Source: a virus (lineage: Duplodnaviria; Heunggongvirae; Uroviricota; Caudoviricetes). From it: a stretch of DNA of 33,753 nucleotides. The DNA is taken from IMG/VR virus record IMGVR_UViG_2579778538_000002. One strand, 5' to 3'. The notes under the pieces were generated by a model. It had not been told where the DNA came from. It ran no database searches and worked only from the letters and a program-made list of their open reading frames with translations. This document shows positions 2,462-33,753 of this stretch, one piece after another. Each line of letters starts with the position of its first letter. Within the stretch, counting starts at the first letter, position 1. The position numbers and the translations under genes were made by a program.

Positions 2462-2515
2462 GGGGGCAGTATTGCCCCCGTGCGGGAACGCTGATATTAA
2501 AGGCGTTTAAAAAGC

Positions 2516-4466: not shown

Positions 4467-5347
4467 ACACTCCTCGTCAGTATTCTGGCGGCCATTGCAC
4501 TTAATCCCGGAGACATGCGGTTGAATGCTGTGCCGACGGCGTTAAGCTGCCCGGAAACGGTATCCAGAGCACCTGCAATATTTCTTTTGTCCACACCACT
4601 CAGCGCAGACTGTGCCTGCTGTACATACGTGGCTGCTTCGCTGGCTGTTCTGGCCAGACTGATGGCATCGGGCATGGATTCAGAGAGTGCGTTAAACGCC
4701 GGAACACTTTTCCCCAGAGCCCCGGAGATATTACCCAGTCCGCTCATCAGCCCCGGCACACGGGTCAGTGCGACAACGGGGTTATCCTTCATTTTCTGTG
4801 TCACCCGAACGGCGCTGATAGTGGTCTGGAGTACAGACTGCGCCTGTTTCGCATAGTTGACGCCGTTGCGGATGAACTGCGCCACCCCTGAAGGTGAAGG
4901 TATGGCACCGGAGACCGCCCCGACACCCGGGAGCTTCGTGCGTATTGCCGGTGGTTGCAGAGGATTTTTCGGGTCACCGGTGTATTCCCGGAGAGACACG
5001 GTGGCACTGACAGCCAGCACGTTGCCGGTACTGTCAGTCTGCTCGCTGGTTGCAGTCACATCGGTGATCACGAACCAGCCGCGATAGTCACCGTTGCCGA
5101 AGACCAGCGCCAGTGCCTGATGGGCTTTCATGGCTGTTCGCAGTCTCGCCAGCTCCACATCGGGTACACAATAATGCTGATGGAAAACCAGAGTTATCTG
5201 GATTTCGTCCAGCCTGTCGCCGACGAACTGCAGACCAGGCTTACCCCCGATGCGGGCATGCTCCGCATAATCGACGCCGAACGTGGCCTCGAAGCCGTCC
5301 CAGTAGGTAATCAGCTCAAACTCAATATCACCCAGTACGGCAAACAT
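4463..5347 (-). CDS. tail formation protein, P2 gpU-like N-terminus (Mu gp43/N region)
   Basis: 294 aa; N-terminus MFAVLGDIEFELITYW...GKPGLQFVGDRLDEIQITL resembles the gpU signature (..LG.F.F......FQFLG...I.L.G); starts 1 nt inside the tape measure stop. Confidence 0.55.
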   Translation of the reverse strand: MFAVLGDIEFELITYWDGFEATFGVDYAEHARIGGKPGLQFVGDRLDEIQITLVFHQHYCVPDVELARLRTAMKAHQALALVFGNGDYRGWFVITDVTATSEQTDSTGNVLAVSATVSLREYTGDPKNPLQPPAIRTKLPGVGAVSGAIPSPSGVAQFIRNGVNYAKQAQSVLQTTISAVRVTQKMKDNPVVALTRVPGLMSGLGNISGALGKSVPAFNALSESMPDAISLARTASEAATYVQQAQSALSGVDKRNIAGALDTVSGQLNAVGTAFNRMSPGLSAMAARILTRSV

Positions 5348-8791: not shown

Positions 8792-8849
8792 GATTGTGCT
8801 CCTGTGTAAGTTCAGGGCAGTATGTCGGGAGAAGCGCGTGACGGATATT

Positions 8850-8881
8850 AAAGGAGATTAAGAAGAAGGGGCCGGAGCCCC
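8850..8881 (-). terminator. candidate intrinsic terminator/attenuator between the tube module and the chaperone/tape measure genes
   Basis: 6-bp GC stem AGGGGC-CGGA-GCCCCT (about 8866-8881) followed on the minus strand by the pyrimidine-rich run TTCTTCTTAATCTCC. Confidence 0.35.
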
Positions 8882-8888
8882 TGTGATG

Positions 8889-13589: not shown

Positions 13590-14705
13590 TTACAGGCAGC
13601 GTGCGACAGCAGCCTCATAGCTGATGCCTTCTTTTTTGGACAGGGCCACTGCTTTCTGATGCAGGGCCAGACGCTCAGGATCGGCTTCCGCAAACTCTGC
13701 CACATCCACCTTCACCGTGTCGCCGACACGCTCTTTTGTGGCCTGTTCGGCGAAATTCATCACCGGCTCCCCGTCGGAGAGCAATGAACGAAAGGCGGTG
13801 GCCAGCGGTGTGCGGCTTTCCCCCTCAGCAAACTCCACCGGCTTGTCGCCACCGGCGACGGCATCCAGCAGGGCAACCACCACGGAGGAGGCGCGGGGAG
13901 CCAGACGGCCCTCTGCGACCAGTTTTTCTGCAAAGGCCACATTGTCCTTATGCAGTTGCTCCTGTCTGACCTGTGCATCACGCGCATCGCGATCAGCAGC
14001 CTGCTGCTTCAGGCGGCGGTTCTCCTCCTGAAGGGCTTCAATCTCTTCTTTTGTCATCGATGATTCCTCGTTACTTGCGGAAGACGGCCCCGGGCCTGTC
14101 TCACTGAATTGTGCACCTGCTGCATCCTGCGACAGTGTGTCGCGGTACGCCTCTTCGCGCAGACTGTTGAGCTGCCATTCCGGCAGGACTTTTTCTGCCT
14201 CGTCCAGACTGAAGCGGGCGATCAGAAAATCGCGCAGCTTTCCCCACAGGGAGGCATTCGTGATGGCCTGCCAGTCGGCGAACTCCACCACACCTTCTTC
14301 CTGCTCACTGAAGGACACCTGTTTCAGCCCCTTGACGGAAGGTGGCTGTGCCCCGAGAAAGCCCACATGGCGAAGGTAGAGCACGCCGGGCTTCGGATTG
14401 GACGGTGAATCCGGGAGGTAGAAAGAGGCGGACACTTTTTTGAATCGTCCGTCGGTGACCATCTCAGCAAACTGCGGGTCCAGCTGGGCAGGCTCTGCCA
14501 TCAGATCGACGCCGCTGAGCGACAGGGCTTTCACCCAGCCCCACGCCGGGTCTTCCGTTCTGGGATGACCAATCACGAGTGGTGCTTCATGGACGGACGG
14601 GTCATAGGCTTTCACGCAGGCGGCAAGATCGTCTGGCGTGAACGGCAGTTTTTTGCCGTGCATATCGGTATGAGTACCGGCTTTAAAAATGTGAATGGCT
14701 GACAT
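13590..14705 (-). CDS. head maturation protease/scaffold protein (Mu gpI-like)
   Basis: 371 aa; N-terminal protease-like half, acidic coiled-coil region (EEIEALQEENRRLKQQAADRDARDAQ), C-terminal scaffold-like half, as in Mu I/Z. Confidence 0.8.
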   Translation of the reverse strand: MSAIHIFKAGTHTDMHGKKLPFTPDDLAACVKAYDPSVHEAPLVIGHPRTEDPAWGWVKALSLSGVDLMAEPAQLDPQFAEMVTDGRFKKVSASFYLPDSPSNPKPGVLYLRHVGFLGAQPPSVKGLKQVSFSEQEEGVVEFADWQAITNASLWGKLRDFLIARFSLDEAEKVLPEWQLNSLREEAYRDTLSQDAAGAQFSETGPGPSSASNEESSMTKEEIEALQEENRRLKQQAADRDARDAQVRQEQLHKDNVAFAEKLVAEGRLAPRASSVVVALLDAVAGGDKPVEFAEGESRTPLATAFRSLLSDGEPVMNFAEQATKERVGDTVKVDVAEFAEADPERLALHQKAVALSKKEGISYEAAVARCL

Positions 14706-14729: not shown

Positions 14730-14768
14730 GGAGACAGTTTGTGAGAAATGCAGGCCCGGCGATTTTAA
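14730..14768 (-). promoter_or_regulatory. candidate activator-dependent late promoter upstream of gene I (tripartite motif shared with the holin upstream region)
   Basis: Minus strand reads TTAAAATC-N7-CTGCATTT-N8-CTGTCTCC; the outer elements have the same 23-nt spacing as upstream of the holin gene. Lies in the 214-bp gap between G and I, where Mu has the C-dependent P_I promoter. Confidence 0.4.
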
Positions 14769-14919
14769 TCTGCTTTAGAAAACATCAGGGGAGAAGGACA
14801 GGGAAAGCAATGCGGTGAACCGGAGGCGGTTATAAAACAGAGGCTGTAAAGCCTTTATAAAGGTAATACAGCCCCTCATTCGCTGGCAATGATAAATCAC
14901 CCGCCTGAAGAGAGAAAAC

Positions 14920-15378
14920 TCAGCGACGGGCCGCTGATTCAAGATGGCGGACAATGGTATCGAGGATGGGGATTACCACTTCAGGCTGTAGTTCTCCATC
15001 CCCCGTCACCGGCAGGAACGGGCGGGCCGGAAGTTCAACAGACTCATTACGCCCCGTTTTACCCCCGAACTGGTGAATGGCACCGTAAACAACGTTGGTC
15101 CCCACAACAGCCTGCCGGTCGTCATGGTCGGTTGATACTGACCCCATCAGACGCCCGGTATCCTGCAGTGTCTGCCCGTCACGTTCTTCCGCTGCCAGCG
15201 AGGGCATCCACCCCGGACGCCCCTCATCAAGAAAGTTAAACTGTGTTTCCGCCAGCAGGGTTCCGGCGATTTTGCGCATCGCGGGCTCCAGGTCTGTGGC
15301 AGCAAGATCCAGCGCACGGAGGCTCCGGCGCAGGGACTTATCGTTAATGGTGATACTGACCAGGTTATCGGAAGCCAT
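14920..15378 (-). CDS. virion morphogenesis protein (Mu gpG-like)
   Basis: 152 aa, downstream of the F-like gene; size and order as Mu G. Confidence 0.7.
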   Translation of the reverse strand: MASDNLVSITINDKSLRRSLRALDLAATDLEPAMRKIAGTLLAETQFNFLDEGRPGWMPSLAAEERDGQTLQDTGRLMGSVSTDHDDRQAVVGTNVVYGAIHQFGGKTGRNESVELPARPFLPVTGDGELQPEVVIPILDTIVRHLESAARR

Positions 15379-15380
15379 TG

Positions 15381-16202
15381 TTATCCTCTCAGTTCCTGTT
15401 GTGCCAGTGGCTGAAGCGTACCCTGATAGCGGGCCAGGTCGGGACGGTATGCTGCCCCCGGAGCATAAGACCAGCCGACGTCGGTGGTCACCTTCGTGGT
15501 GCCGGTATTAAAGGTGGCCACGTTCCGCATTTCGCCGGTTTTCTCTGAGACCAGTTTCAGTTCCTGGCCCATGGCAGAGCCGGAGCTGATAACCTTCAGG
15601 CCACGGGCACGTACATCCGCCGCACTCAGGGCAATAACACTACAGCGGCAGCGCCAGCCGTTCGGCGGGTAAAATGCCTGCCAGAACGGGTCATCCCAGC
15701 GCAGCACCAGACCATGCAGCGCCAGATGGCTCCTGCGGGTATGGCTGTCGTTGATGCCGGTATACATCCAGTACGGCCTGTCGTCGACGTTTTCCATCTG
15801 TTCCGCCCAACGACCGGCGCTGTAGAGTACGGACATATTGGTGCGAAAGATGGTATCGAGCCGCCACGGACTGCCCTGCTGAATGGTGACCGGCTCACCC
15901 GTTACCGGGTCAGTCGTGTCACGTGGTCCCCACCATCCCTTACGCTTCAGCACCGGCTCCAGCTCCTGCCGGAACCAGCGATCGGTTTTTCCTTCATCGA
16001 CAGCCTGCTGCAGTGCCCCGCGAATATCTTCCAGGATATCCAGGCGGGTCACTTTAGCAACGGTAAAGGCGCGGGCATGGGCCTCCTGCCACATTTCTTC
16101 CCAGTCCCAGGTAATCTGATATCCTTTGGACTTCAGGTAGTTGATTGCCCGCTTCGGGGGAAGCGTCATGCAGTACGCCAGTTCAGCCGTTGTCACGCTC
16201 AT
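15381..16202 (-). CDS. head morphogenesis protein, Mu F-like
   Basis: Contains GWRCRC and a conserved aromatic region typical of Mu F / SPP1 gp7-family proteins; start moved to ATG at 16202 (GGGGA Shine-Dalgarno), overlapping the portal 3' end. Confidence 0.7.
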   Translation of the reverse strand: MSVTTAELAYCMTLPPKRAINYLKSKGYQITWDWEEMWQEAHARAFTVAKVTRLDILEDIRGALQQAVDEGKTDRWFRQELEPVLKRKGWWGPRDTTDPVTGEPVTIQQGSPWRLDTIFRTNMSVLYSAGRWAEQMENVDDRPYWMYTGINDSHTRRSHLALHGLVLRWDDPFWQAFYPPNGWRCRCSVIALSAADVRARGLKVISSGSAMGQELKLVSEKTGEMRNVATFNTGTTKVTTDVGWSYAPGAAYRPDLARYQGTLQPLAQQELRG

Positions 16203-17679
16203 GCAGACGTCCCCGGATATTTGCCACAAAGAGAATGCGGGCCAGCCGCTCCTGCAGATCGTCCGTGTTCATCTGAGGGTAGAGCTCCGCCAGTTCGCCC
16301 AGCAGCTCAGACGGGTTAACCCCGTTTTCGACCCGCCTGAACAGAGGTGCCAGGACGGGTTCCAGCGTGCCATTTAACGCGCCTCCGTTCATCAGAATGT
16401 CCAGCGCGTCGTCAAGCTGCTGCTGAGCCTGAATATCAGCATCAATCGCCTCGGCAAATGACAGCGGCAGCATGTTATTCTGGCGTTCCGACGGTGGTGT
16501 CTCGTCAATATCGCCGTCCTGCAGTTGGTACTCACGCTTGAAGTACTGCGGGGTCAGACGCAGACCCGCCCGGGTGAGTTTTTCGTCGCGGGTGGCACGG
16601 GTGTCATCAATGGCCTCCTGTTCCCACATGGCCCAGACCGGACACGGCACATCGCCGAAGTTCAGGGTGACCACCGTTCTGATGACCTGATTCACTGCCG
16701 CCTGAATGATGTCCGCATCCGCATCGCGGATATCAGCCGTTACCTCCAGCCCGGCCTGTGCAGAGGCCTTGTTACTGTTCGCTTCCGTGGTCTGATTCTG
16801 ACCGAGTAATGCAATGGAGATCTCACTGCGTGACAGTGTGATCAGCTCGCGAAATACCTCGCTGCTGTCTGCCTTGCCATCCGCTGCCCTGAGCTCAATA
16901 CTGCTGTCATCGGGGATGGCGGCCACCGCGTCCTCCACCATCTGCTCCATGGAGTCCAGCAGTTTTTCAATCTCTGCATCATTTGCGCCCCTCGGGTGCT
17001 TACCGATCACCCACGGGGAGCCAAACTTTTCGGCAAAGCGGAGCCAGAATTTCATCCCGCCTTTCTTGAAGGCGACCGGCCAGAAGCACATGGACAGGTC
17101 CGGGAAACCGTAAGGATTGTCATACGAGGCATCCTGTGCCGGCACCACGAATTTTGACGGTGACAGCAGCTCACCCTCCACACCCGCATCACGCGCCCGA
17201 AAGCGCAGGCAGTTGTCCGTATCAAACTGAAACCACTCAGGCGGTTTGCCGACAATATCCGTCACCGCCCACGACCTGACCGAACGGCCCCACATGATTT
17301 CACAGGGCTGATACCCGTAGAGCACGGCATCGCTCATTTCACCGATGATGCGGGACAGATCCAGATCGTCGAGCATGTCGCGGATGAAACGGAAGACCCG
17401 GGCAGAGGCGTGACCACGCTCCAGTCCACGCTCCAGCGATTTGAGCGCTGCTTTACGTCTGCGGATACAGCCCCCGACCAGCGGGTCGGTGCGCAGTTCG
17501 CGGTAGATACGGATATCCCGTCCCTGAGCCTTGAGAATGGGATCAGGATTGGGCAGATACATGCCCAGTCCGTAAAAGTCGATCGCGCGGCTGCGGGAGG
17601 CAATCTGCGCGGTCAGTGATTTCTGAGGCTCAGAAAAAGCAACAAATTCATCGGGTGAAACCCAGATACCCCTCGCCAT
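16183..17679 (-). CDS. portal protein (Mu gp29-like)
   Basis: 498 aa; start overlaps terminase stop (ATGA); terminase-portal-F order. Confidence 0.8.
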   Translation of the reverse strand: MARGIWVSPDEFVAFSEPQKSLTAQIASRSRAIDFYGLGMYLPNPDPILKAQGRDIRIYRELRTDPLVGGCIRRRKAALKSLERGLERGHASARVFRFIRDMLDDLDLSRIIGEMSDAVLYGYQPCEIMWGRSVRSWAVTDIVGKPPEWFQFDTDNCLRFRARDAGVEGELLSPSKFVVPAQDASYDNPYGFPDLSMCFWPVAFKKGGMKFWLRFAEKFGSPWVIGKHPRGANDAEIEKLLDSMEQMVEDAVAAIPDDSSIELRAADGKADSSEVFRELITLSRSEISIALLGQNQTTEANSNKASAQAGLEVTADIRDADADIIQAAVNQVIRTVVTLNFGDVPCPVWAMWEQEAIDDTRATRDEKLTRAGLRLTPQYFKREYQLQDGDIDETPPSERQNNMLPLSFAEAIDADIQAQQQLDDALDILMNGGALNGTLEPVLAPLFRRVENGVNPSELLGELAELYPQMNTDDLQERLARILFVANIRGRLHERDNG

Positions 17680-19274
17680 CAGAATCCCTCCAGCATACGG
17701 GCCGCCTGACGACGACGGCGTGAGCTTGCCTTCACCGGCCCTTTGTTAATTTCACGGCTGGCGAAATACGCCAGCGCCAGTGCGATGGCTGAATCCCCGT
17801 GGCGTTTACCACCGTCAGCCTTTGCTTTTGAGCGTTGCTCCGGTACGCGGGGGACACCGTTCACCACCTGAACGGCCCGCAGGTCATCCAGTGTGTCTTC
17901 ATCCTTTGGTAAGTCCACCAGGTTGCCGTCTTCCAGTGCAGCTTTGACCGGAGGCATATGCTCCCGGTACCAGCCTTCGGTTGGCATCACCTGCTGAACC
18001 CGGCCGGAGCCGTAGCGCTGCATGGCGTATTCAGCCAGATAGGCACCATTACCACGGGCATCAAACGCTGCACCCAGCAGACCGGGCAGGCCATCCATCA
18101 GATACCAGGTGATTTGCTCCTGCTGTCTGAACGGCACGTTACGCAGCTCCAGTACGAATGGCACGCGTCGTACCAGGTTCTTCTCCTGCAGCAGGGGATA
18201 GTCCACCGACAAATCACCGCTACGGCCAAAGTCGCGCCCCAGGAAAGAGCGGGCATCAGTGGGGAGTGCCTCCAGCAATGGTTTCAGATACTCATCAAGC
18301 CAGTCCTGCGTCTCGCGGAAGCGAACCTCATCAGACAGCAGTTCATAACCTTCCTTGCAGGTCAGACGCAATACCGGCGTATCAGCGGACATGCGGGACT
18401 CTATCAGGGCACGGGACAGCCAGGCACCGCCACCGTTGGCCGGAATACAGTCAAGCTCTTCGGATGCGCCGGCACCGTAGAATTTGTACACCGATGCCAT
18501 CCAGGCCTGCTCGGATGCCTCCGACCATTCCTTCCCGGTGCGCAGACAGACGCGCCGGAACAGCCCCTCAGATACGGCTTCCCGGAAAGTGATGCGATGT
18601 ATGCTGCCTCCCTGACGTCCGGCACGGATATCCCCGATAAGCGTATTGAACGGATTGTCGTCACCGTCATGGGTGGAGATAACGCGTACCTTTCCCCCCC
18701 AGATAAGCATCGCCAGCGCCGCTTTCAGCAGTTCGTCCAGTTGCTCATGGAACGCCGCTTCGTCGATAACAATAATACCCTGACGGCCACGCAGGTTAGA
18801 CGGGCGGCTGGAGAGCGCAACAATACGAAAGCCGGAGTCAGGAAATTTGATGGTGTAAGTCTTGATGTGTTTGTCGTCGTCGTCCTCTTCCCAGAATCCT
18901 TCTTCAATTTCACTGGCCGCATAGTTGAATGCCCGTGCCCACATCGCACACGCCTGAATGTATTCGACGGTCATGTCCTGGTTATAAGCGATGTAATACA
19001 CATTCATCCCGCCTGCTGGCGCAGAAGAGGCGGCGGTCAGTACGTTATCGGATGCCTCAGCCCATGTAATACCGGTACGACGGCTCTTTTCTATCACCTT
19101 AAGCGGAGAGGTGTCTGCCACCCAGCGCTGCTGGTAAGGCAACAGAACGGGAGGGGCATCCAGCGCCGAGGTATCAGGCAAAACGGGAGCAAGGTTATTC
19201 CTCCCGTCCATGGGACTCATCCCTTCGGGGCCGCCGCCAGCGGCGTTTAAAATCACTCCGGATGATTTTGTCAT
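17679..19274 (-). CDS. terminase large subunit (Mu gp28-like)
   Basis: 531 aa; N-terminal ATPase-like and C-terminal nuclease-like regions; start overlaps small-subunit stop. Confidence 0.8.
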   Translation of the reverse strand: MTKSSGVILNAAGGGPEGMSPMDGRNNLAPVLPDTSALDAPPVLLPYQQRWVADTSPLKVIEKSRRTGITWAEASDNVLTAASSAPAGGMNVYYIAYNQDMTVEYIQACAMWARAFNYAASEIEEGFWEEDDDDKHIKTYTIKFPDSGFRIVALSSRPSNLRGRQGIIVIDEAAFHEQLDELLKAALAMLIWGGKVRVISTHDGDDNPFNTLIGDIRAGRQGGSIHRITFREAVSEGLFRRVCLRTGKEWSEASEQAWMASVYKFYGAGASEELDCIPANGGGAWLSRALIESRMSADTPVLRLTCKEGYELLSDEVRFRETQDWLDEYLKPLLEALPTDARSFLGRDFGRSGDLSVDYPLLQEKNLVRRVPFVLELRNVPFRQQEQITWYLMDGLPGLLGAAFDARGNGAYLAEYAMQRYGSGRVQQVMPTEGWYREHMPPVKAALEDGNLVDLPKDEDTLDDLRAVQVVNGVPRVPEQRSKAKADGGKRHGDSAIALALAYFASREINKGPVKASSRRRRQAARMLEGF

Positions 19275-19816
19275 GTGGCAATCCCCAGAATCTCGCGACG
19301 AAGCGCCTGTACTGCGTCGCTTGACAGTCCCCCCTTACGGGCAATTTTCTCGGCGTTGCTGGCTGCCTGCTGCGCTCTGGCCCGTACTTCAGACTGGAAC
19401 TTTTTGAGGTTGACGGACGCGCGGGACAGCGTAGCCACATTCTTCGCCACCTTCGACAGCAGGGCCACGCGTTCTTTAGGATCGACTTCGCCTTCTTCCG
19501 CCTCCTGCAACTGGACAATACTCTCGAACAGCTCGGTCTGAATAAGGGCTATCACAGCCTCCGAACGCGCATCCTGATCGTCTGCTGCGCCTTCGGTCAG
19601 CATGCGGGCCGCTTCTGTTGCCGCACGGATAGCACCATAGCGGCGCTCAATCTTCTGTCCATAGCGATGGATAGCGGATTTGCTGATGACGTACCCCCGC
19701 TCACGCAACAGTGACTCCAGCTCGTTATACCCGCTGAAGCCGGATTCAGTCAGCGCCCGTTCAAGCCAGCGGCGCACGTCTTCCGGCAGCTTTTCTATTG
19801 TGCTGCGTCTGGCCAT
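19271..19816 (-). CDS. terminase small subunit (Mu gp27-like)
   Basis: 181 aa, immediately upstream of the large terminase gene; N-terminal DNA-binding-like region and helical C-terminus. Confidence 0.6.
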   Translation of the reverse strand: MARRSTIEKLPEDVRRWLERALTESGFSGYNELESLLRERGYVISKSAIHRYGQKIERRYGAIRAATEAARMLTEGAADDQDARSEAVIALIQTELFESIVQLQEAEEGEVDPKERVALLSKVAKNVATLSRASVNLKKFQSEVRARAQQAASNAEKIARKGGLSSDAVQALRREILGIAT

Positions 19817-20127
19817 TATTCACTCCAGTACTTTTCCGGGCGGGCAATACCCGGACCACATTCCACGGTGTATTCCACCAGGTCTACGCCGAGGCGGGTC
19901 AGGTCAGCAAACCAGTCGCCAGAAGGTTTTTTCTCCAGCTCAACCATTTTACGGTCAGCCAGATAATCCAGTTCGCGGCGCAGTTCCAGCGGTGTGGTGT
20001 CCGGGTAGATGGCACGGGACACATCCAGCAGCAGCGTCTCGCTGGCGGTGTAAGGGCGGGTCTTGTTCAGGGCAACCAGCAGACTCCAGCGCAGGGATTC
20101 GCGGCGTACCCGGGTAATATCGACCAT
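19816..20127 (-). CDS. hypothetical protein (Mu gp26-position)
   Basis: 103 aa ORF between lysis cassette and terminase genes; ATGA-type overlap with neighbours. Confidence 0.45.
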   Translation of the reverse strand: MVDITRVRRESLRWSLLVALNKTRPYTASETLLLDVSRAIYPDTTPLELRRELDYLADRKMVELEKKPSGDWFADLTRLGVDLVEYTVECGPGIARPEKYWSE

Positions 20128-20453
20128 TATTGACCTCCGGTATTGCGGTACTGCTGTACCACTTCCAGTTTGTTATAAAGCGCGTCCAGTTTGGCCTCAA
20201 TGACTGTCTGGCCACGGATATAATCCTCTCGACGGACATAATTCAGCGGTAAATCCGCTTTAAATCGCATAAATTCTTTTTCCAGCTCGCCCCAGTTGGA
20301 GGCGGATTGTTGCAGGGCCTGTTCAAGGGAGGCGAATCGTGCCGCCTGGCGTTCTTCTGTTTTACTGAACAACCATTTGGCGAGCCCTCCCACAAACCTC
20401 ATGAAGGTGAGCAGAAAACTCACCACCGTCCAGAATTCAACCTGCAGTGTCAT
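20127..20453 (-). CDS. membrane protein with one N-terminal TMD (Mu gp25 'releasin'-position)
   Basis: 108 aa; hydrophobic stretch FWTVVSFLLTFMRFVGGLAKWLF then helical region; located right after the spanins. Confidence 0.45.
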   Translation of the reverse strand: MTLQVEFWTVVSFLLTFMRFVGGLAKWLFSKTEERQAARFASLEQALQQSASNWGELEKEFMRFKADLPLNYVRREDYIRGQTVIEAKLDALYNKLEVVQQYRNTGGQ

Positions 20454-21100
20454 TTCTGTAATCCTTCCCGTTCATCCAGCAGCGCGTTTATCTGGTTCCG
20501 CCAGCGACGACATTGCCATGCGTTGTCGATGATGTTGGCGAGAACGTCACGCTGGGAGACACCCGAATCGCGTAACCGGGTGTCAGTGGTTTCAGGTTGC
20601 CCGGTCGCTGTGCCAGAGCGGGTGCCAGTGGCGGCAACTGAGTCTGAATGACCGGTGTCGACGGATGCGTTGTCATATCCGAGTGCGGCGTTGTACTGGC
20701 GCACGAAACCGCGAGTAAACACGCACTCAATGGGATGACTCTTACCTTTTTCATCAATCCAGCGCTGTGTGACATCGTTAATTTGCCCCTGTAGTTGTTT
20801 GTTCCGGCTCTCCAGTTGAGCAATCTGCTCAAGATAACCGGCTTCAGCCCGCTGCCCGGCGGCCACCTGCTCCTGATACCGTCTGGCCCAGGCCCGCAGC
20901 GCAGCATTCTCAAGCGTTGCCTGCTCCGTTTTGTACGCGTCAAATGCTGACTGCAACTGACTTAGCGCGGTATCACCGTCACGCTTTGCAGAGTCATGAC
21001 CACTTCTGTATCCCATGGCATACAGGCCGACCAGAAAGGCATTGATAAGAATGGCCAGCAGAATGCCGCGCCACGGCAGCTTTTTAACCAGATGCCACAC
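20450..21100 (-). CDS. i-spanin (Rz-like inner-membrane spanin)
   Basis: Positively charged N-terminus then TMD (LPWRGILLAILINAFLVGLYAMGY), then long helical periplasmic region; an out-of-frame lipoprotein gene is nested inside. Track ORF starts at 21202; GTG near 21100 with GGGGAGG Shine-Dalgarno is the more plausible start. Confidence 0.55.
   Translation of the reverse strand: MWHLVKKLPWRGILLAILINAFLVGLYAMGYRSGHDSAKRDGDTALSQLQSAFDAYKTEQATLENAALRAWARRYQEQVAAGQRAEAGYLEQIAQLESRNKQLQGQINDVTQRWIDEKGKSHPIECVFTRGFVRQYNAALGYDNASVDTGHSDSVAATGTRSGTATGQPETTDTRLRDSGVSQRDVLANIIDNAWQCRRWRNQINALLDEREGLQK
20488..20754 (-). CDS. o-spanin (Rz1-like outer-membrane lipoprotein), nested in the i-spanin gene
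   Basis: Internal Met of track ORF 20488-20943: MKKVRVIPLSACLLAVSCASTTPHSD... has a lipoprotein signal (lipobox AVSC) and a Pro-rich mature part, entirely inside the i-spanin gene in another frame. Confidence 0.6.
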   Translation of the reverse strand: MKKVRVIPLSACLLAVSCASTTPHSDMTTHPSTPVIQTQLPPLAPALAQRPGNLKPLTPGYAIRVSPSVTFSPTSSTTHGNVVAGGTR

Positions 21101-21824
21101 AACTGCTGCCTCCCCATGTGAGATATCGCGGTGCCAGTTCGCGCAGGATGCGCTGCGGATAATGGCGGTTCTCCCGCCAGCTGGCCGCATTGCGTCCGGC
21201 ATTCACCGTGGCGACATGTCCGAACCAGCGGGTGCTGTCCAGACCTTTCTGTGATGCAAGCCGCCTGTCCCGTTGTACCCAGCCCAGACCACCGTTATAG
21301 CCCGACAGTGTCATGGCCATACGCTCGCAGTCACTGGCGGCGCTGACACGCTGCCACAGCCAGCGGTCATAGCTGACCAGCGCCCGGATAGCCCATGCCG
21401 GATTAAACGGCTCACGACTGCTCAGCATCGGTATCAACTGGCTTATCCAGTCGGCAGTGGCAGGCATGAACTGCGCCAGTCCCTGAGCGCCAGCCGGCGA
21501 GATCGCATCAGGTCGCCAGCCGCTTTCCTGATGCAGTTGCGCGGCGAAATCGGCCACCGGCGCAGACAGTCCCCATTCAAGCCGGGCATTACGGATCACA
21601 TCATCGCGATACTGCAGCGCAGCCTGCGGAGGTTGTGCTGCGCATGCCTGGCTGAAAAAGCCGCCACACCAGAGCAACATTGCGACAAAGAATACCCATG
21701 CCATATGAACCAGAAAGGTCCCGGCGCGGACTGACAGGCGTTCGGTTCTGATGAAGACCCGAAAGGCTTCGAAAGCCAGTTTCAGGGACATGCATACAAT
21801 CCAGGTGATCTGCGGCCAGTTCAT
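21084..21824 (-). CDS. endolysin, lytic transglycosylase (SLT domain) with N-terminal hydrophobic signal/SAR-like segment
   Basis: Catalytic-region signature QLHQESGW ... GAQGLAQFMPATA (E-S / GLMQ-type SLT motif); hydrophobic MAWVFFVAMLLWCGGFFSQA before the domain; true start may be an internal Met. Confidence 0.8.
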   Translation of the reverse strand: MNWPQITWIVCMSLKLAFEAFRVFIRTERLSVRAGTFLVHMAWVFFVAMLLWCGGFFSQACAAQPPQAALQYRDDVIRNARLEWGLSAPVADFAAQLHQESGWRPDAISPAGAQGLAQFMPATADWISQLIPMLSSREPFNPAWAIRALVSYDRWLWQRVSAASDCERMAMTLSGYNGGLGWVQRDRRLASQKGLDSTRWFGHVATVNAGRNAASWRENRHYPQRILRELAPRYLTWGGSSCVASG

Positions 21825-21826
21825 GA

Positions 21827-22177
21827 TTAAAGCCCCATCGCAACAGCCAGGCAGACCGCTGCAACAATCAGTGCACGGCGGATTAACGCAGCAGAAAACA
21901 CCAGGTGAAGGCCGGTCTGTACCGGGAAACGCCCTTCAGCCATCAGCCTGTCGTCATGTTTCAGGTACTGACCGGGACGGGCTTTGGGGAAGAGCGAACG
22001 GTCAAGCCAGTAACCCAGCACTGCTGCCAGCGTGATGAGTGCCAGCTTGTAGATCACAACAGGCAGCTGCTGTGGTGAGACCAGAGCGATGGTGCCCAGC
22101 AACAGCACTGAGGTCAGCAGCCAGCCGCTGAGGCGAGGTTTTTTAACAGGGGGAATGAATTTTTTCAGGTTTTTCAT
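21827..22177 (-). CDS. putative holin / small multi-TMD membrane protein
   Basis: Start moved to ATG at 22177 (AAGGAG 7 nt upstream); 116 aa with about three hydrophobic segments; first gene of lysis cassette directly upstream of the endolysin. Confidence 0.5.
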   Translation of the reverse strand: MKNLKKFIPPVKKPRLSGWLLTSVLLLGTIALVSPQQLPVVIYKLALITLAAVLGYWLDRSLFPKARPGQYLKHDDRLMAEGRFPVQTGLHLVFSAALIRRALIVAAVCLAVAMGL

Positions 22178-22196
22178 GTGTGTCTCCTTATCTGGT

Positions 22197-22235
22197 GGAG
22201 ACAGCATCACAAATACAGGGCGCGAAGGATTTTAA
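22197..22235 (-). promoter_or_regulatory. candidate activator-dependent late promoter upstream of the lysis cassette (same tripartite motif as upstream of gene I)
   Basis: Minus strand reads TTAAAATC-N9-CTGTATTT-N6-CTGTCTCC, ending about 20 nt before the holin ATG; in the divergent intergenic region 22178-22307. Confidence 0.4.
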
Positions 22236-22307
22236 AGCGCGTTAAGAGAGCCGGGGATACGGGATGTGCAGGATAAACGATGAATTATTCACAGAGGAGA
22301 ATACGAT

Positions 22308-23036
22308 ATGACGCAGACACTGAATCCGGTCATCACTGTCACCGTGTCCGGTCCTGTGGGCAGCGGTAAAAGTTACGTACTGGCGCGAATAGAGGAAGTG
22401 GTGAAACAGGAATTCGGAAACAGCGTCATTGTCGACGCCGCAGACGTGGACGGTGAGCGCCGTATGAGTGGGGATGATCTGAGCACATGGCAGAAACCAC
22501 GGGCTGGCACAGTGATCAGGCTGGAGGAATACACGGGACAGGGCCTGTTGTCATACGGCGAGGAGCGTATCTGTCGGACGAATGAGCTGCTGGATGTTAT
22601 ATGCCCCACGGGCCGGCAACCCTGGATACTGCCCGATGCACTGCATGCCACCATTGCGGCACTGATGACAGTTTACGATCAGGAGCTGCTCATGAAGGAG
22701 TTACGTAAACTCACTGGTCAGTCAACAGAATGTTGTTCGTCCCCGAAGTACGGCAAACAGGAACACATCCCGATTAACCAGCCTCCCCGGTTCTTCGACG
22801 AATACCTTCTGACACCGGAAAATAAAGCTGAGCATGAAGAGATCAAAGCGGCGTTGTTCCGGGAAATCAGGAAGATTGCTGAAATGCAACTGGAGGGCGG
22901 GCTGGACAGAGTGATGGCGAGAGGAGAATGGGCATCGCTGTTTGAAAGAGTTTCCCCGGAATTACTTCCCCTCGCACTGGCTATCGGGATTATGCAGACA
23001 GCGGATAAACCTCACTTACGTTCATTAAACACGTAA
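22308..23036 (+). CDS. P-loop NTPase, kinase-like (Walker A GPVGSGKS at residues 15-22), unknown function
   Basis: 242 aa with strong Shine-Dalgarno (GAGGAG) before ATG; N-terminal strand-P-loop-helix arrangement VITVTVSGPVGSGKSYVLARIEE and candidate Walker B SVIVDAAD; transcribed divergently from the late operon. Confidence 0.6.
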   Translation: MTQTLNPVITVTVSGPVGSGKSYVLARIEEVVKQEFGNSVIVDAADVDGERRMSGDDLSTWQKPRAGTVIRLEEYTGQGLLSYGEERICRTNELLDVICPTGRQPWILPDALHATIAALMTVYDQELLMKELRKLTGQSTECCSSPKYGKQEHIPINQPPRFFDEYLLTPENKAEHEEIKAALFREIRKIAEMQLEGGLDRVMARGEWASLFERVSPELLPLALAIGIMQTADKPHLRSLNT

Positions 23037-23416
23037 CGCATAATCCGGGATACGCATTCAGCGATGACTGCATTTTCACCGGTTTTTACTGCATCCAGAA
23101 GTGACTCTTTAAATGGTACGGGCCGGGGCTGCAGAAAGGTCGGCATGGCATTGAGCAGACAGAGCGTTTTTTCCGTGAGGACGACATCAGCCGCTCCCAC
23201 AGCCAGCAACTGAGAGTAACGAATATAGCTGTTATCCCGAAGCCATATCAGCGTATCAATAAAACACCGGCACTTTTTCTGGTCGTGATCAACCTGGTCC
23301 GGGATATCGAAAAAACCAGAATAAATCAAAACCTGAGGTGCCGGATGCGTGTTCAGTAATCGGCAGAATATTTTGCCGGTGAGTACATAAAAATCATCAT
23401 TTAAGGAGTGCATCAT
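23012..23416 (-). CDS. hypothetical protein (134 aa)
   Basis: ORF convergent with the P-loop gene (25-bp 3' overlap) and head-to-head with the 71-aa gene; AT-richer than the phage core; coding status uncertain. Confidence 0.4.
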   Translation of the reverse strand: MMHSLNDDFYVLTGKIFCRLLNTHPAPQVLIYSGFFDIPDQVDHDQKKCRCFIDTLIWLRDNSYIRYSQLLAVGAADVVLTEKTLCLLNAMPTFLQPRPVPFKESLLDAVKTGENAVIAECVSRIMRYVFNERK

Positions 23417-23630
23417 GAATCCCCGATTAACGTTAACAGAACATCAGCGCCGTGCTGAAGCAGTGAACAATGTTCTGGAAGATATTATCCGGTTATACCG
23501 CGGAGAACTGAGTGTCTGTCGTGCCGCTTTTCATTTTCAGGGAATACAAAAGCAGTTTGATACTTCTGTTTTTGCAGAAGGTATTACTTATGCCCTGGAC
23601 CGGATAAGGTCAGAAAATCGCCCCGGATAA
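23415..23630 (+). CDS. hypothetical protein (71 aa)
   Basis: ATG preceded by AAGGAG with 6-nt spacing; no recognisable motifs. Confidence 0.45.
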   Translation: MNPRLTLTEHQRRAEAVNNVLEDIIRLYRGELSVCRAAFHFQGIQKQFDTSVFAEGITYALDRIRSENRPG

Positions 23631-23820
23631 TCCCTAAACCACATTAACAGAAATCCCGCCATCCCTGCCGCATCATGAAAGAACGACCAGCCCGGCACCC
23701 GAAAGCCGGGCTGGTCATCGCCCCACAGGAATGCGCTGTGAGCCGACCAAGGTTCAGTCAGTCTCGCGAGACCTGACCAGACTGCCATATTTTTTAATAA
23801 TTGTAAAAGGCTTGCAGATT

Positions 23821-24585
23821 ATGAAAATGCAGACATTACCCATCGTGCCGTGGATTGGTGGCAAACGCCGCCTTGCAAAACACATTCTGCCGCTGTTTCC
23901 GGCGCATGAATGTTATGTGGAGCCGTTTTGTGGGGCAGCAGCGCTCTATTTTCTTAAGACACCCGGCAAGATCGAAGTCATCAATGATATCAACGGTGAA
24001 CTGGTGAATCTGTACCGGGTGGTAAAGCATCACCTGGAAGAATTTGTCCGCCAGTTCAAATGGGCGCTGGTCAGCCGTCAGATCTACAAATGGCTGCAGA
24101 TCACCCCGGAAGAAACACTGACGGATATCCAGCGTGCGGCACGGTTCTACTACCTTCAGAAGCAGGCGTTTGGCGGCAAGGTGGCAGAGCACAGCTTCGG
24201 TACCTCCACCACATCCCCGCCACGCTTCAACCTGCTACGTATTGAAGAAGAACTGTCAGCGGCACACCTGCGGCTTTCCAGAACAGTCATAGAACACATG
24301 GACTGGCAACAGTGCATTGAGCGTTATGATCGTCCGCACACGCTGTTCTACTGCGACCCACCGTACCTGGGTACGGAAGGCTATGGTGTGGATTTTCCTG
24401 AAGGGAACTACTCGCGGCTGGCAGAGCTGGCCCGGTGCATCAGAGGAAAAATGATAATTTCGGTGAACGACATCCCGCAGATGCGCGAGGTGTTCACTGG
24501 ACTGAACATACAGACAGTGAATATCAACTACAGTCTGGCGGGTAAACCCACGCCGCGCCGTGAACTGCTAATCTGCAACTTCTGA
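23821..24585 (+). CDS. DNA N6-adenine methyltransferase, Dam-like (D12 class), orphan
   Basis: N-terminal AdoMet-binding region WIGGKRR...YVEPFCGAAALYF and catalytic motif DPPY (FYCDPPYLGTEGYG) as in E. coli Dam; start set at internal ATG 23821 (MKMQTLPIV...). No restriction endonuclease candidate adjacent. Confidence 0.85.
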   Translation: MKMQTLPIVPWIGGKRRLAKHILPLFPAHECYVEPFCGAAALYFLKTPGKIEVINDINGELVNLYRVVKHHLEEFVRQFKWALVSRQIYKWLQITPEETLTDIQRAARFYYLQKQAFGGKVAEHSFGTSTTSPPRFNLLRIEEELSAAHLRLSRTVIEHMDWQQCIERYDRPHTLFYCDPPYLGTEGYGVDFPEGNYSRLAELARCIRGKMIISVNDIPQMREVFTGLNIQTVNINYSLAGKPTPRRELLICNF

Positions 24586-24701: not shown

Positions 24702-25058
24702 TCAGCCTGCGATTTTTCCTGGTTTTGGCTGAGTATAGAATCGCCCAATCTCAAGAAATGAGCGTTGTTGGTCTGGTGTCATGTCGTCAAAAGTATCTAT
24801 TAGTTTTTGTTTTTCTGGGGAAATTTGATTCTGGTTTCTAGTCATACCATCTGTGCTCATTCCAGTGAGCAACCAATTTACATCAACATTAAACTCTTGA
24901 TGCATCTTTAACAGAAACTCCCCTCCAGGCATCGCCTTTCCATTTTCAATCTGACTGATACCACCATTAGAAATACCTAAACGAGCTGCAAATTCTCTCT
25001 GGTTCAACCCTGCTTTCTTCCTCACAGAAATAACGCGCTCTCCTATATCTTTGCTCAT
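24702..25058 (-). CDS. prophage repressor, XRE-family HTH (functional analogue of Mu c)
   Basis: N-terminal helix-turn-helix LNQREFAARLGISNGGISQIENGK; transcribed divergently from the early operon; start codon lies inside an operator half-site. Confidence 0.8.
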   Translation of the reverse strand: MSKDIGERVISVRKKAGLNQREFAARLGISNGGISQIENGKAMPGGEFLLKMHQEFNVDVNWLLTGMSTDGMTRNQNQISPEKQKLIDTFDDMTPDQQRSFLEIGRFYTQPKPGKIAG

Positions 25059-25340: not shown

Positions 25341-25392
25341 ATATTTTGAGTCTTTGTAAAAGGTTATCACATATCGCAAAAGAGGTATGCAG

Positions 25393-25701
25393 ATGAGTAA
25401 GACGAATGTTTCAAGCTCCGGCAGTCGCATCCTCCGGGTACTCAAAGCGCTGCGCGGTCATGCCCTGAACGGTATTTCTAACGGTGAACTGGCGACAGCA
25501 CTGCACGAGTCACCGGCAAACATCAACCGGGCACTCAACACCCTCATTGAAGAAGGGCTGGCTCTGAAACTGGAGAACGGACGTTTTGCACCGGGCATCC
25601 AGTTACTGCAGATCGCCATGGCCCACAGTAACGAGATGGCACGTGCACAGGATCGTATTAACGAAATTAACCAACGTGTCATTTCAGGTAGTCGTTTGTA
25701 A
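25393..25701 (+). CDS. winged-helix DNA-binding protein (IclR/MarR-like N-terminal HTH)
   Basis: ILRVLKALRGHALNGISNGELATALHESPANINRALNTLIEEGL resembles a winged-helix HTH; start set at ATG 25393 (Shine-Dalgarno AGAGG). Confidence 0.5.
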   Translation: MSKTNVSSSGSRILRVLKALRGHALNGISNGELATALHESPANINRALNTLIEEGLALKLENGRFAPGIQLLQIAMAHSNEMARAQDRINEINQRVISGSRL

Positions 25702-32942: not shown

Positions 32943-33392
32943 ATGCAGAAAAAACGCCTGATACAGCTTATCCATATTGCCCGTAATGAACTGGGTATGG
33001 ATGAAGACACCTACCGCCAGATGTTACAGGGGCTGACCGGTAAAGCCTCAACCAAAGGAATGGATACCACACAACTAAACTGCGTGCTGGAATCCATGAA
33101 AAAGAAAGGCTTTCGCGTTAAACCAGCCAGAAAAGCCAGCTCCGGTTTACCGCTTGATAACCATCCGCAGTCCAGGAAAATTCGTGCGCTATGGCTTGAA
33201 ATGGCTGCTGCCGGCATTGTTCGTGACCGTTCAGAAAATGCATTAGCGAGGTGGATCAAGCGGGAAACGGGCATCAGCGCCCTGCGCTGGCTCAGTACTG
33301 AACAGGCAAGCAGTGTTATTGAGAAACTGAAGAAGTGGCAGCGCAGAGCTGCGGGAGTCAAACATGAGCGACCTGAATCAGTTTCGAAGTAA
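32943..33392 (+). CDS. gemA: GemA/gp16-like early regulatory protein
   Basis: 149 aa directly upstream of mor as in Mu; N-terminus RLIQLIHIARNELGMDEDTYRQMLQGLTGKAS fits the Mu gp16/GemA family pattern (from memory). Confidence 0.55.
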   Translation: MQKKRLIQLIHIARNELGMDEDTYRQMLQGLTGKASTKGMDTTQLNCVLESMKKKGFRVKPARKASSGLPLDNHPQSRKIRALWLEMAAAGIVRDRSENALARWIKRETGISALRWLSTEQASSVIEKLKKWQRRAAGVKHERPESVSK

Positions 33393-33753
33393 GGGGCCGG
33401 AACTCCTGGTGGAACTGGCACAGCATACCTCTGAGACCGTTCGCGAGATTATTGATATTGAGCCCGAAGTTGCCGACCAGATTGGTCAGGCCGTCGCGAA
33501 CCGAATGATGCAGGTCTGGGGCGGGCAAAACGTTTATTTCCCGATGGGCATGGTATGGAAGGTCAGTCAGCGCGACCGGGAAATCTTCAGGGAGTTTAAC
33601 GGACGCAACCACCACGAACTGGCCCGCAAATTTGGTGTTTCGCTTCAGTGGGTCTACAGCGTGGTTAAGCGGGTAAGAAAAGAAGAACTGGATCGGATGC
33701 AGGGCAAGCTATTTGCTGATGAACCCGATGCAGATACGGAGAAAAAAGAGTAA
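33364..33753 (+). CDS. mor: middle operon regulator Mor (Mor/C-family transcription activator)
   Basis: 129 aa (same length as Mu Mor); C-terminal HTH region FNGRNHHELARKFGVSLQWVYSVVKRVR parallels Mu Mor FNGRN..EL....GV....VY...RR.R; overlaps gemA-like gene by 29 nt. Confidence 0.85.
   Translation: MSDLNQFRSKGPELLVELAQHTSETVREIIDIEPEVADQIGQAVANRMMQVWGGQNVYFPMGMVWKVSQRDREIFREFNGRNHHELARKFGVSLQWVYSVVKRVRKEELDRMQGKLFADEPDADTEKKE

What the first reader, a model, noticed from the sequence alone, without database searches (positions are those of the whole stretch)
14730..22235. Shared tripartite motif upstream of the holin gene and of gene I: candidate late promoters
On the minus strand both regions read TTAAAATC-N(7-9)-CTG(T/C)ATTT-N(6-8)-CTGTCTCC, with identical 23-nt spacing between the outer elements (plus-strand 22197-22235 and 14730-14768). 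In Mu, C-dependent late promoters sit upstream of lys and I, and this phage encodes Mor at the right edge. The recurrence at the two analogous positions is unlikely to be chance and suggests a binding site for a Mor/C-family activator, possibly encoded beyond the window.
Basis: partly seen in the sequence, partly recalled or inferred. Interest (0 to 1): 0.55.

Follow-up and report, generated by a model that had tools for sequence, protein, structure and literature searches.

The report
Mor-activated late promoters of Mu-like prophage
The repeated motif is real and marks two of at least four late-gene promoters of a common BcepMu-type E. coli prophage, most likely switched on by the phage's own Mor-family activator as in phage Mu; a sound but unsurprising finding.

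Summary
The tripartite string occurs exactly twice, at the stated coordinates, and in none of 100 shuffles.

The window is a BcepMu-type transposable prophage, identical to Escherichia phage PhiKM. Comparison with relatives redefines the element. A 22-nt spacer of fixed length and free sequence follows, then a -10-like hexamer nAnnMT.

This is the geometry of phage Mu's mapped Mor-dependent promoter Pm (dyad -51..-36, -10 at -13..-8).

With this definition the window has four late-strand sites:
- holin
- head protease I
- tail chaperone
- baseplate W

It also has a candidate site before the Dam methylase gene and a reverse reading of the holin dyad.

The same four positions carry the box in KP12, BcepMu/phiE255, a Pseudomonas phage and a Pasteurella phage. 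The baseplate start codon sits at the predicted transcription start in all five, which suggests leaderless mRNA.

The only Mor/C gene is inside the window (33364-33753).

No transcription start or binding data exist, so function is inferred. Verdict: interpretation supported and refined; a new member of a known kind; modest interest.

The parts
22231..22246 (-).
   Evidence: 25.7 bits; best score in shuffles 16.8. 11 of 16 positions are invariant in 14 distinct relatives.
22203..22208 (-). P_lys -10-like hexamer GATGCT (p28-33), preceded by TG at p25-26. Predicted start is 22196/22195; the holin ATG is at 22177.
   Evidence: Hexamer plus the next base is invariant (7/7) in 14 distinct relatives.
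14764..14779 (-). P_I activator dyad TCTAAAGCAGATTAAA (p-10..p5, p1 = 14768)
   Evidence: 26.3 bits. 16 of 16 positions are invariant in 7 distinct relatives.
14736..14741 (-). P_I -10-like hexamer CAAACT (p28-33). Predicted start is 14729/14728; the gene I ATG is at 14705.
8847..8862 (-). P_tail activator dyad CTTAATCTCCTTTAAT (p1 = 8851), a new third copy
   Evidence: 23.0 bits. 14 of 16 positions are invariant in 16 distinct relatives.
8819..8824 (-). P_tail -10-like hexamer CATACT. Predicted start is 8812/8811; the tail assembly chaperone gene starts at ATG 8791.
   Evidence: Downstream gene is Phage_TAC_7.
2496..2511 (-). P_W activator dyad TTTAAACGCCTTTAAT (p1 = 2500), a new fourth copy
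   Evidence: 25.2 bits. Also present in KP12.
2468..2473 (-). P_W -10-like hexamer AATACT. The start codon of baseplate wedge gene W (2461) lies at p40, the predicted transcription start, which suggests a leaderless mRNA.
   Evidence: Downstream gene is GPW_gp25.
23633..23648 (+). Candidate P_dam dyad CCTAAACCACATTAAC (p1 = 23644) with hexamer CATCAT at 23671-23676, upstream of the Dam methylase gene 23731-24585
   Evidence: 23.5 bits. The gene is MethyltransfD12. Relatives have dam divergent from the holin gene around one dyad.
22269..22274 (+). Hexamer CAGGAT at p28-33 of the holin dyad read on the + strand. This is a candidate divergent promoter for ORF 22308-23036 (predicted start 22281/22282).
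   Evidence: 23.6 bits. Hexamers occupy the same place in KP12 and L004 (CAGAAT) and in L032 (CATGAT).
33364..33753 (+). Mor-family activator gene (129 aa), the last gene of the early operon within the window and the proposed binder of all the dyads
   Evidence: PF08765, 1.3e-43. It is the only Mor/C homologue in the window. About 30% identical to Mu Mor and 37% to Mu C. Its recognition helix is shared with the other phages that carry the box.
14920..14937 (-). Terminator-like hairpin at the end of gene G, upstream of P_I
14841..14854 (-). Second terminator-like hairpin between G and P_I. It forms part of a larger conserved palindrome at 14842-14873.
8867..8882 (-). Terminator-like hairpin AGGGGCTCCGGCCCCT whose T-tail runs into the P_tail dyad. 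In Mu Pm a GC-rich hairpin followed by a T-run likewise overlaps the Mor site.
   Evidence: Mu sequence.

Best explanation
The two motifs are the lysis-operon promoter (P_lys) and the head-protease promoter (P_I) of a BcepMu-type transposable prophage. They belong to a set of four late promoters; the other two are P_tail and P_W.

Each promoter has three parts:
1. A 16-bp imperfect dyad, TTTAA-N6-TTAAA.
2. A 22-nt spacer in which length matters but sequence does not.
3. A weak -10 hexamer, nAnnMT. There is no -35.

Inferred mechanism, by homology with Mu Pm: the phage's single Mor-family protein is made from the end of the early operon. It binds the dyad centred near -43 and recruits host sigma-70 RNA polymerase through contacts with the alpha C-terminal domain and sigma region 4. 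Transcription then starts about 40-41 nt downstream of the first T of the right half-site.

What is shown: the sequences, their conservation pattern, their positions, the presence of one Mor gene, and the identity of geometry with Mu Pm. What is inferred: binding by Mor, dependence on Mor, and the exact start sites.
For: **Motif.** It is non-random.

**Footprint in relatives.** Dyad and hexamer are nearly invariant, while only 7-9 of 22 spacer positions are fixed.

**Register with Mu Pm.** The published Mor dyad spans -51..-36, and permanganate-reactive positions are at -12, -4, -1, +1, +3 and +4 (PMC4287176). These map uniquely onto the Mu sequence. They put the dyad, the -10 hexamer TATCCT and +1 at exactly my p-10..p5, p28-33 and p41.

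**Shared core.** BcepMu's core TAAAGCCGATTAA has a single match in the Mu genome, with one mismatch, and it lies on the Mor dyad. Only 3 of 100 shuffles gave any match.

**Non-circular matrix test.** A weight matrix built without any enterobacterial site scores six window placements at 23.0-26.3 bits. The best score in 40 shuffles was 16.8, and the next real hit is 14.1.

**Same positions in other phages.** KP12, BcepMu/phiE255, Pseudomonas phage Komp_PAO1_1 and Pasteurella phage AFS-2018a carry the box at the same four gene positions. The Pasteurella phage was not in the training set and has near-consensus -10 hexamers.

**Invariant -10 positions.** Among 17 sites, A at p29 and T at p33 are invariant, and p9-p28 carry about 0 bits. 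Of the 12 other TAA-N6-TTAA occurrences in Mu, only 1 has both bases.

**Baseplate start codon.** The start codon of baseplate gene W falls at p40 or p41 in five phages.

**No consensus promoter; terminators upstream.** None of the four sites has a consensus sigma-70 promoter on the late strand. Terminator-like hairpins precede P_I and P_tail.

**Single activator gene.** The window has one Mor-family gene.

**Helix tracks the box.** The recognition helix VS(L/M)Q(W/F)(V/I)Y is shared by all five box-carrying phages and differs in Mu Mor and Mu C.
Against: - There is no experimental start site, footprint or expression measurement for this phage or any BcepMu-type phage.
- The one dRNA-seq data set I found for a lysogen, B. 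cenocepacia J2315, shows no start at the predicted positions. It is from uninduced cells, so it is uninformative.
- A matrix trained without Mu Pm does not recover Pm in the Mu genome. The link to Mu rests on the core half-sites and the geometry, not on the whole site.
- The -10 hexamers of P_lys and P_I are poor (3 of 6).
- In locus L045 a GGGAG that looks like a ribosome-binding site lies at p26-30, upstream of the predicted start. It would serve only read-through transcripts.
- The shared CTGTCTCC and the T-run of P_lys and P_I go beyond what this model requires and are not explained by it.
Confidence: 0.8

Rival explanations
1. These are ordinary activator-independent sigma-70 promoters. 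TAAAAT/TAATAT (p2-7) would be the -10 hexamer, and transcription would start near p14. The GC-rich spacer, the T-run and CTGTCTCC would then lie in the leader.
For: TAAAAT (P_lys, P_I) and TAATAT (P_tail, P_W) match TATAAT at 5 of 6 positions.
Against: Position 7 is G in 9 of 17 sites, including all Komp sites and three of four BcepMu sites. That would remove the critical -7 T. Nothing is conserved where a -35 or an upstream activator site would then lie. This reading also leaves three things unexplained: the left half-site, the invariant A29/T33 at fixed distance, and the W start codons at p40/41. In Mu Pm the homologous sequence is the mapped Mor site, not the -10.
Confidence: 0.05
2. The third element is chiefly an RNA signal. 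CUGUCUCC would pair with the ribosome-binding site of the holin gene and of gene I to form a leader hairpin that limits translation.
For: Both sites can form a hairpin that sequesters the ribosome-binding site: -9.8 and -10.0 kcal/mol, z = -2.2 and -1.7. Changes seen in relatives (T to C opposite G, A to G opposite T) keep the pairing. For gene I, read-through transcripts from P_lys would contain both arms.
Against: In the Mu Pm register, the 5' arm lies upstream of the predicted start, so it would be absent from the promoters' own transcripts. The stability is only marginally better than shuffles, and 7 and 10 of 200 shuffles fold as well. CTGTCTCC is absent from BcepMu, Komp and Pasteurella sites. 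P_tail and P_W have the related CTGCCC with no matching downstream arm. No Rfam family matches.
Confidence: 0.07
3. The dyad is bound by a regulator other than Mor. Candidates are the phage's IclR-like HTH protein (25387-25701), the c-type repressor (24702-25058) or a host protein.
For: The window encodes other DNA-binding proteins. No binding experiment assigns the site.
Against: The site core and its distance to the -10 equal those of the mapped Mor site of Mu Pm. The Mor recognition helix is nearly identical in the five box-carrying phages and differs in Mu Mor and C, whose boxes differ. The sites precede late operons only, as expected of a late activator.
Confidence: 0.06
4. The shared strings are a relic of duplication or gene conversion between two intergenic regions and have no function.
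For: P_lys and P_I share more than the family consensus requires (CTGTCTCC and a T-run). The Dam-proximal dyad looks like a duplicated copy.
Against: Conservation follows a block pattern, with the dyad and hexamer kept and the spacer free, across hosts from Burkholderia to Pasteurella. The positions are the same four in each phage, and the distance to the start codons is fixed.
Confidence: 0.02

Closest known systems
Phage Mu middle promoter Pm (Mor-dependent)
   Same: Both have a 16-bp imperfect dyad with a TAA-N6-TTAA core. Mu has AGTAAAGCCGGTTAAT; BcepMu has sTAAAGCCGATTAAA. The distance from dyad to -10 hexamer, and by inference to +1, is identical. There is no -35. A GC-rich hairpin with a T-run overlaps the site. 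The activator is a Mor-family protein made from the early operon.
   Different: In Mu, Pm is a single middle promoter that drives gene C. Here the Mor-type box drives the late operons directly, and there is no second activator. The flanks differ: p6-8 is AKC here and CCG in Mu. A matrix of BcepMu-type sites does not retrieve Pm. The recognition helices also differ.
Phage Mu late promoters Plys, PI, PP, Pmom (C-dependent)
   Same: Both systems have four late promoters, including one before the lysis genes and one before gene I. Each has a -10 without a -35, and the activator dyad is centred at -43.5 (PMC2582627). A T-run in the spacer is noted for Mu Plys and Pmom (PMC4461284) and is present in P_lys and P_I here. 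The candidate Dam promoter parallels Pmom, which drives a DNA modification gene.
   Different: The half-sites differ: Pmom reads TTAT-N6-ATAA, whereas this phage has TTTAA-N6-TTAAA. The other two promoters here precede the tail chaperone and baseplate W, not P and mom. The activator is equally distant from Mor and C.
Phage P2/P4 late promoters activated by Ogr/Delta (from my own knowledge, not tested here)
   Same: P2 has four late operons, each preceded by an activator dyad upstream of a -35-less promoter. The tail and baseplate genes of this phage are P2-like.
   Different: The activator family is unrelated (zinc-finger Ogr), the dyad is different (TGT-N12-ACA, centred near -55), and the promoter positions differ.

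Membership tests
Mor/C-dependent promoters of Mu-like phages | The phage encodes a Mor/C-family activator | tested here: met
   ORF 33364-33753 matches PF08765 at 1.3e-43 over the full domain. It is the only homologue in the window.
Mor/C-dependent promoters of Mu-like phages | A 16-bp imperfect dyad-symmetry element | tested here: met
   TTTAA-N6-TTAAA is present at all four late sites. p-8/-7 and p2/p4 are invariant, and p-6, p1 and p3 are kept in 16 of 17 sites.
Mor/C-dependent promoters of Mu-like phages | The dyad is centred at about -43.5 relative to the transcription start | tested here: inconclusive
   The distance from the dyad centre to the -10-like hexamer (30.5 nt) equals that in Mu Pm. 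W start codons at p40/41 fit a start there. The start sites themselves have not been measured.
Mor/C-dependent promoters of Mu-like phages | A recognisable -10 hexamer and no -35 hexamer | tested here: met
   The hexamers are GATGCT, CAAACT, CATACT and AATACT, all with A at position 2 and T at position 6. No consensus sigma-70 promoter lies on the late strand at any of the four sites.
Mor/C-dependent promoters of Mu-like phages | The promoters lie at the heads of late operons | tested here: met
   The sites precede the holin gene, head protease I, the tail chaperone and baseplate W. Terminator-like hairpins lie upstream of P_I and P_tail.
Mor/C-dependent promoters of Mu-like phages | Transcription depends on the activator, and the activator footprints the dyad | not testable with these tools
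   This needs reporter assays, EMSA or footprinting, or 5' mapping after induction.
Mu C-box (late promoter) subtype | Half-sites of the Mu C type, such as TTAT-N6-ATAA in Pmom | tested here: not met
   The window sites read yTTAA-N6-TTAAA. The Pmom sequence was read.
Mu Mor-box (Pm) subtype | Sequence similarity to the Pm Mor site | tested here: inconclusive
   The core TAAAGCCGnTTAA is shared with BcepMu and is unique in the Mu genome. The full matrix does not retrieve Pm.
Consensus sigma-70 promoter | TTGACA-like and TATAAT-like hexamers 16-18 nt apart | tested here: not met
   None is present on the late strand at any of the four sites.
Known structured RNA family (Rfam) | A match at the family's gathering score | tested here: not met
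   The whole window gives no matches.

The most novel reading that the evidence does not exclude
A single Mor-family protein runs the whole late programme of BcepMu-type phages, with no separate middle stage. It would act from five dyads used as six promoters. One dyad would fire in both directions: towards the lysis operon, and towards the Dam methylase in the ancestral layout or an inserted P-loop gene here. The baseplate operon would be expressed from a leaderless mRNA. This four-promoter plan would be conserved from Burkholderia to Pasteurella.
Probability: 0.4. Interest if true: 0.45.

Novelty: new member of a known kind. Interest (0 to 1): 0.35.

Why it matters
This prophage family is common. 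The P_I region is present in 637 of 5,426 complete E. coli genomes, and relatives occur in Klebsiella, Burkholderia, Pseudomonas and Pasteurella. I could not find a description of its late regulation in the papers I could search.

The analysis gives a precise, testable promoter map: six predicted starts, plus the base positions that should and should not tolerate mutation. It suggests a simpler two-stage cascade than Mu's three stages. It also offers natural variants of Mor boxes and recognition helices for the current structural work on Mor/C activators.

It corrects some annotations as well. BcepMu gp32's annotated start lies inside the predicted -10 hexamer. The start of the dam gene in the window is probably too far upstream.

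It does not reveal a new kind of mechanism.

Tried and rejected
Allowing up to 5 mismatches found no third copy. The motif was wrongly delimited; redefining it as dyad plus hexamer found the other copies.
2. **Wrong spacing in one scan.** I used TAA-N7-TTAA by mistake and it missed the sites. One search corrected this to N6.
3. **Other -10 placements.**
   - CATTTG/CATTTC (p20-25) was rejected because relatives have CTTTTC there, which lacks the critical A.
   - TAAAAT (p2-7) is treated as a rival explanation.
   - TTAAAA as a -35 was rejected because it would leave a 21-nt spacer.
4. **DNA operator reading.** I considered TGTCTCC-N9-GGAGACA as a DNA operator. The arm spacing differs by 3 bp between the two sites, so I rejected it.
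5. **J2315 dRNA-seq.** B. cenocepacia J2315 carries a BcepMu prophage (PMC4603805, Table S3). I mapped coordinates as chr = 609955 - BcepMu coordinate. Late-direction starts occur only before gp20 and inside gp48, and none falls at a predicted late promoter. The cells were uninduced, so this is uninformative.
6. **Matrix without Mu Pm.** It does not retrieve Pm in the Mu genome.
7. **Literature.** I found no description of these promoters in the papers I could search. The original BcepMu paper (J Mol Biol 2004) is not held, so prior description there cannot be excluded.
8. **Rfam.** No matches.
Full report
**Observation.** On the minus strand the window reads TTAAAATC-GCCGGGC-CTGCATTT-CTCACAAA-CTGTCTCC at 14768-14730. 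At 22235-22197 it reads TTAAAATC-CTTCGCGCC-CTGTATTT-GTGATG-CTGTCTCC. The pattern matches only these two places and none of 100 shuffles. The single elements are individually unremarkable. A scan allowing 5 mismatches adds no further late-strand copy.

**Context.** The window is 100% identical to Escherichia phage PhiKM (genus Bcepmuvirus) over the shared part. It is about 87% identical to Klebsiella phage KP12.
- Late genes run on the minus strand, from the holin gene (21827-22177) down to the tail fibres.
- Early genes run on the plus strand from 22308.
- They end with GemA and a complete Mor-family gene at 33364-33753.
- That gene is the only Mor/C homologue in the window.

The two motifs lie directly upstream of the holin gene and of the head maturation protease gene I.

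**Phylogenetic footprint.** I fetched 56 viral loci anchored on gene I.
- In the tier with about 74% protein identity, both sites keep TTAAAAKC and CTGTCYCC at the same 39-nt span, while the GC-rich stretch between them changes freely.
It reads ATTAACGCTGTTTAAAATC at the holin site and TCTAAAGCAGATTAAAAKC at the gene I site.
- The 'CTG' of the middle element is not conserved.
- Among distinct sequences, the dyad, spacer and hexamer-plus-one-base have these numbers of invariant positions:
  - P_lys: 11/16, 9/22 and 7/7
  - P_I: 16/16, 7/22 and 6/7
  - P_tail: 14/16, 7/22 and 7/7

**Register and the link to Mu.** I number positions from p1, the first T of the right half-site TTAA.
- BcepMu itself is only 49% identical in gene I protein. 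It carries sTAAAGCCGATTAAAAGACC before both its holin gene and its gene I equivalent.
- Mu's middle promoter Pm contains AGTAAAGCCGGTTAAT.
- The literature places the Mor dyad of Pm at -51..-36, centred at -43.5. It reports permanganate-reactive bottom-strand T residues at -12, -4, -1, +1, +3 and +4 (PMC4287176).
- That pattern fits the Mu sequence in only one way. It puts +1 at p41, the -10 hexamer TATCCT at p28-33, and the dyad at p-10..p5.
- The window sites have GATGCT and CAAACT at p28-33.
- BcepMu's 13-nt core matches the Mu genome once, with one mismatch, exactly on this dyad. Only 3 of 100 shuffles gave any match.
- Mu late promoters likewise have a -10, no -35, and a C dyad centred at -43.5 (PMC2582627).

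**More copies.** Searching for the dyad core alone (TAA-N6-TTAA) reveals four late-strand sites in the window. Their p1 positions and downstream genes are:
- 22235: holin
- 14768: gene I
- 8851: tail assembly chaperone, hexamer CATACT
- 2500: baseplate wedge gene W, hexamer AATACT

KP12 has the same four sites. Pseudomonas phage Komp_PAO1_1 has four copies of TTTAAACCCGATTAAAAGCC at the same four gene positions. BcepMu and phiE255 have two perfect and two imperfect dyads at those positions.

None of the four window sites has a consensus sigma-70 promoter on the late strand. Terminator-like hairpins precede P_I and P_tail.

**Non-circular tests.**
- I built a weight matrix from ten sites outside the enterobacterial lineage. 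It scores six window placements at 23.0-26.3 bits. The maximum over 40 shuffles was 16.8, and the next real hit scores 14.1.
- Pasteurella phage AFS-2018a was not used for training. It gives four hits at the same four gene positions, with hexamers TATACT, TATTCT, TAAACT and TAATAT at p28-33.
- Over 17 sites, A at p29 and T at p33 are invariant, and positions p9-p28 carry essentially no information.
- Nine sites were found by the dyad alone and played no part in choosing the hexamer position. All nine have both bases. Only 1 of the 12 other dyad-core occurrences in Mu has both.
- The start codon of gene W lies at p40 or p41 in the window, KP12, BcepMu/phiE255, Komp and the Pasteurella phage. 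This fits a leaderless mRNA that starts where the Mu register predicts.

**Who binds.** The Mor proteins of the five box-carrying phages are 42-53% identical to the window protein, apart from KP12 at 94%. All five share the recognition helix VS(L/M)Q(W/F)(V/I)Y. Mu Mor (VTFNTVY) and Mu C (LSQPQIY) differ there and have different boxes.

A preprint lists six HTH DNA-contact residues of Mu C (10.1101/2025.05.02.651988). By the alignment, four of them (R98, S110, Y115, R120) are kept in the window protein. The preprint also reports contacts of Mor and C with the alpha C-terminal domain and sigma-70 region 4, and binding as a tetramer.

**Extra sites.**
- A plus-strand site at p1 = 23644 (23.5 bits) precedes the Dam methylase gene.
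- The holin dyad read on the plus strand has CAGGAT at p28-33 (23.6 bits) and faces ORF 22308-23036.
- In L017, L030 and L036 the dam gene is directly divergent from the holin gene, with the single dyad between them.
- The window and L004 have two ORFs inserted there.
- This suggests an ancestral bidirectional arrangement, but it is less secure than the four late-strand sites.

**What remains unexplained.** P_lys and P_I share CTGTCTCC and a T-run beyond the family consensus.
- CTGTCTCC can pair with the ribosome-binding sites, but only modestly: z = -2.2 and -1.7. It also lies upstream of the predicted start.
- P_tail and P_W have the related CTGCCC, so part of it may be a lineage-specific -10/discriminator preference.

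**Negative results.**
- The dRNA-seq data for a BcepMu lysogen show no start at the predicted sites, but the cells were uninduced.
- A matrix trained without Mu Pm does not retrieve Pm.
- Rfam gives nothing.
- The papers I could search do not describe these promoters. The original BcepMu paper could not be read.

**Verdict.** These are most likely Mor-activated late promoters, two of at least four. They are built like Mu Pm and served by the activator encoded in the window. This is a new member of a known kind and of modest interest. Function still has to be shown by experiment.

Noticed in passing
window 14842-14873 (minus strand), between gene G and P_I: A 32-nt composite palindrome, GGCTGTA-tta-CCTTTATAAAGG-ctt-TACAGCC. 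Its core TTTATAAAG is kept in the G-I intergenic region of KP12-type relatives, BcepMu, phiE255 and Komp_PAO1_1. Mu's strong gyrase site is annotated in the same G-I gap (Mu 17879-17880). This could be a positional equivalent, or only a terminator.
   Followed up: partly
window 22308-23630 (+): Two ORFs are inserted between the holin and dam genes relative to L017, L030 and L036. One is 242 aa with a Walker A motif (GPVGSGKS; weak AAA/KAP P-loop hits; phrog_3787, function unknown). The other is 71 aa (phrog_4490). The first faces the reverse reading of the holin dyad, so it may be a late-expressed moron.
   Followed up: partly
window 23685-23716: A strong hairpin, GACCAGCCCGG-N9-CCGGGCTGGTC, sits in the predicted dam leader. 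On the opposite strand it is followed by GTTCTTTC. The same hairpin lies next to P_lys in relatives that lack the insertion. It is probably the terminator of the minus-strand repressor-side transcript.
   Followed up: no
window 23731-24585 (+): The dam ORF probably starts downstream of the first ATG. In relatives, residues 1-21 align in a different reading frame from the rest. The methyltransferase domain begins at residue 41.
   Followed up: partly
L059 (BcepMu) 18850-18864: The annotated start of gp32 (18850) falls inside the predicted -10 hexamer GATGAT. The in-frame ATG at 18862 (p41) fits the N-terminus of the homologues (M..HIF), which suggests a leaderless start. In L045 the gene I start (GTG) is also at p41.
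   Followed up: partly
BcepMu prophage in B. cenocepacia J2315 (PMC4603805, Table S3), chr3 605588: The largest values among the prophage TSS entries I saw in the dRNA-seq table belong to an antisense start inside the transposition protein B gene (BCAS0547 = gp08). I did not check the equivalent position in the window.
   Followed up: no
L060 (Pasteurella phage AFS-2018a), e.g. plus strand 5071-5082 and 22261; minus strand 11012-11023 and 14315-14348: Besides the four promoter boxes, this phage has many TTTAAA-N5-TTTAAA repeats, some in tandem at 11-nt steps, in intergenic regions on both strands. They may be extra Mor sites or simply a feature of the AT-rich host.
   Followed up: no
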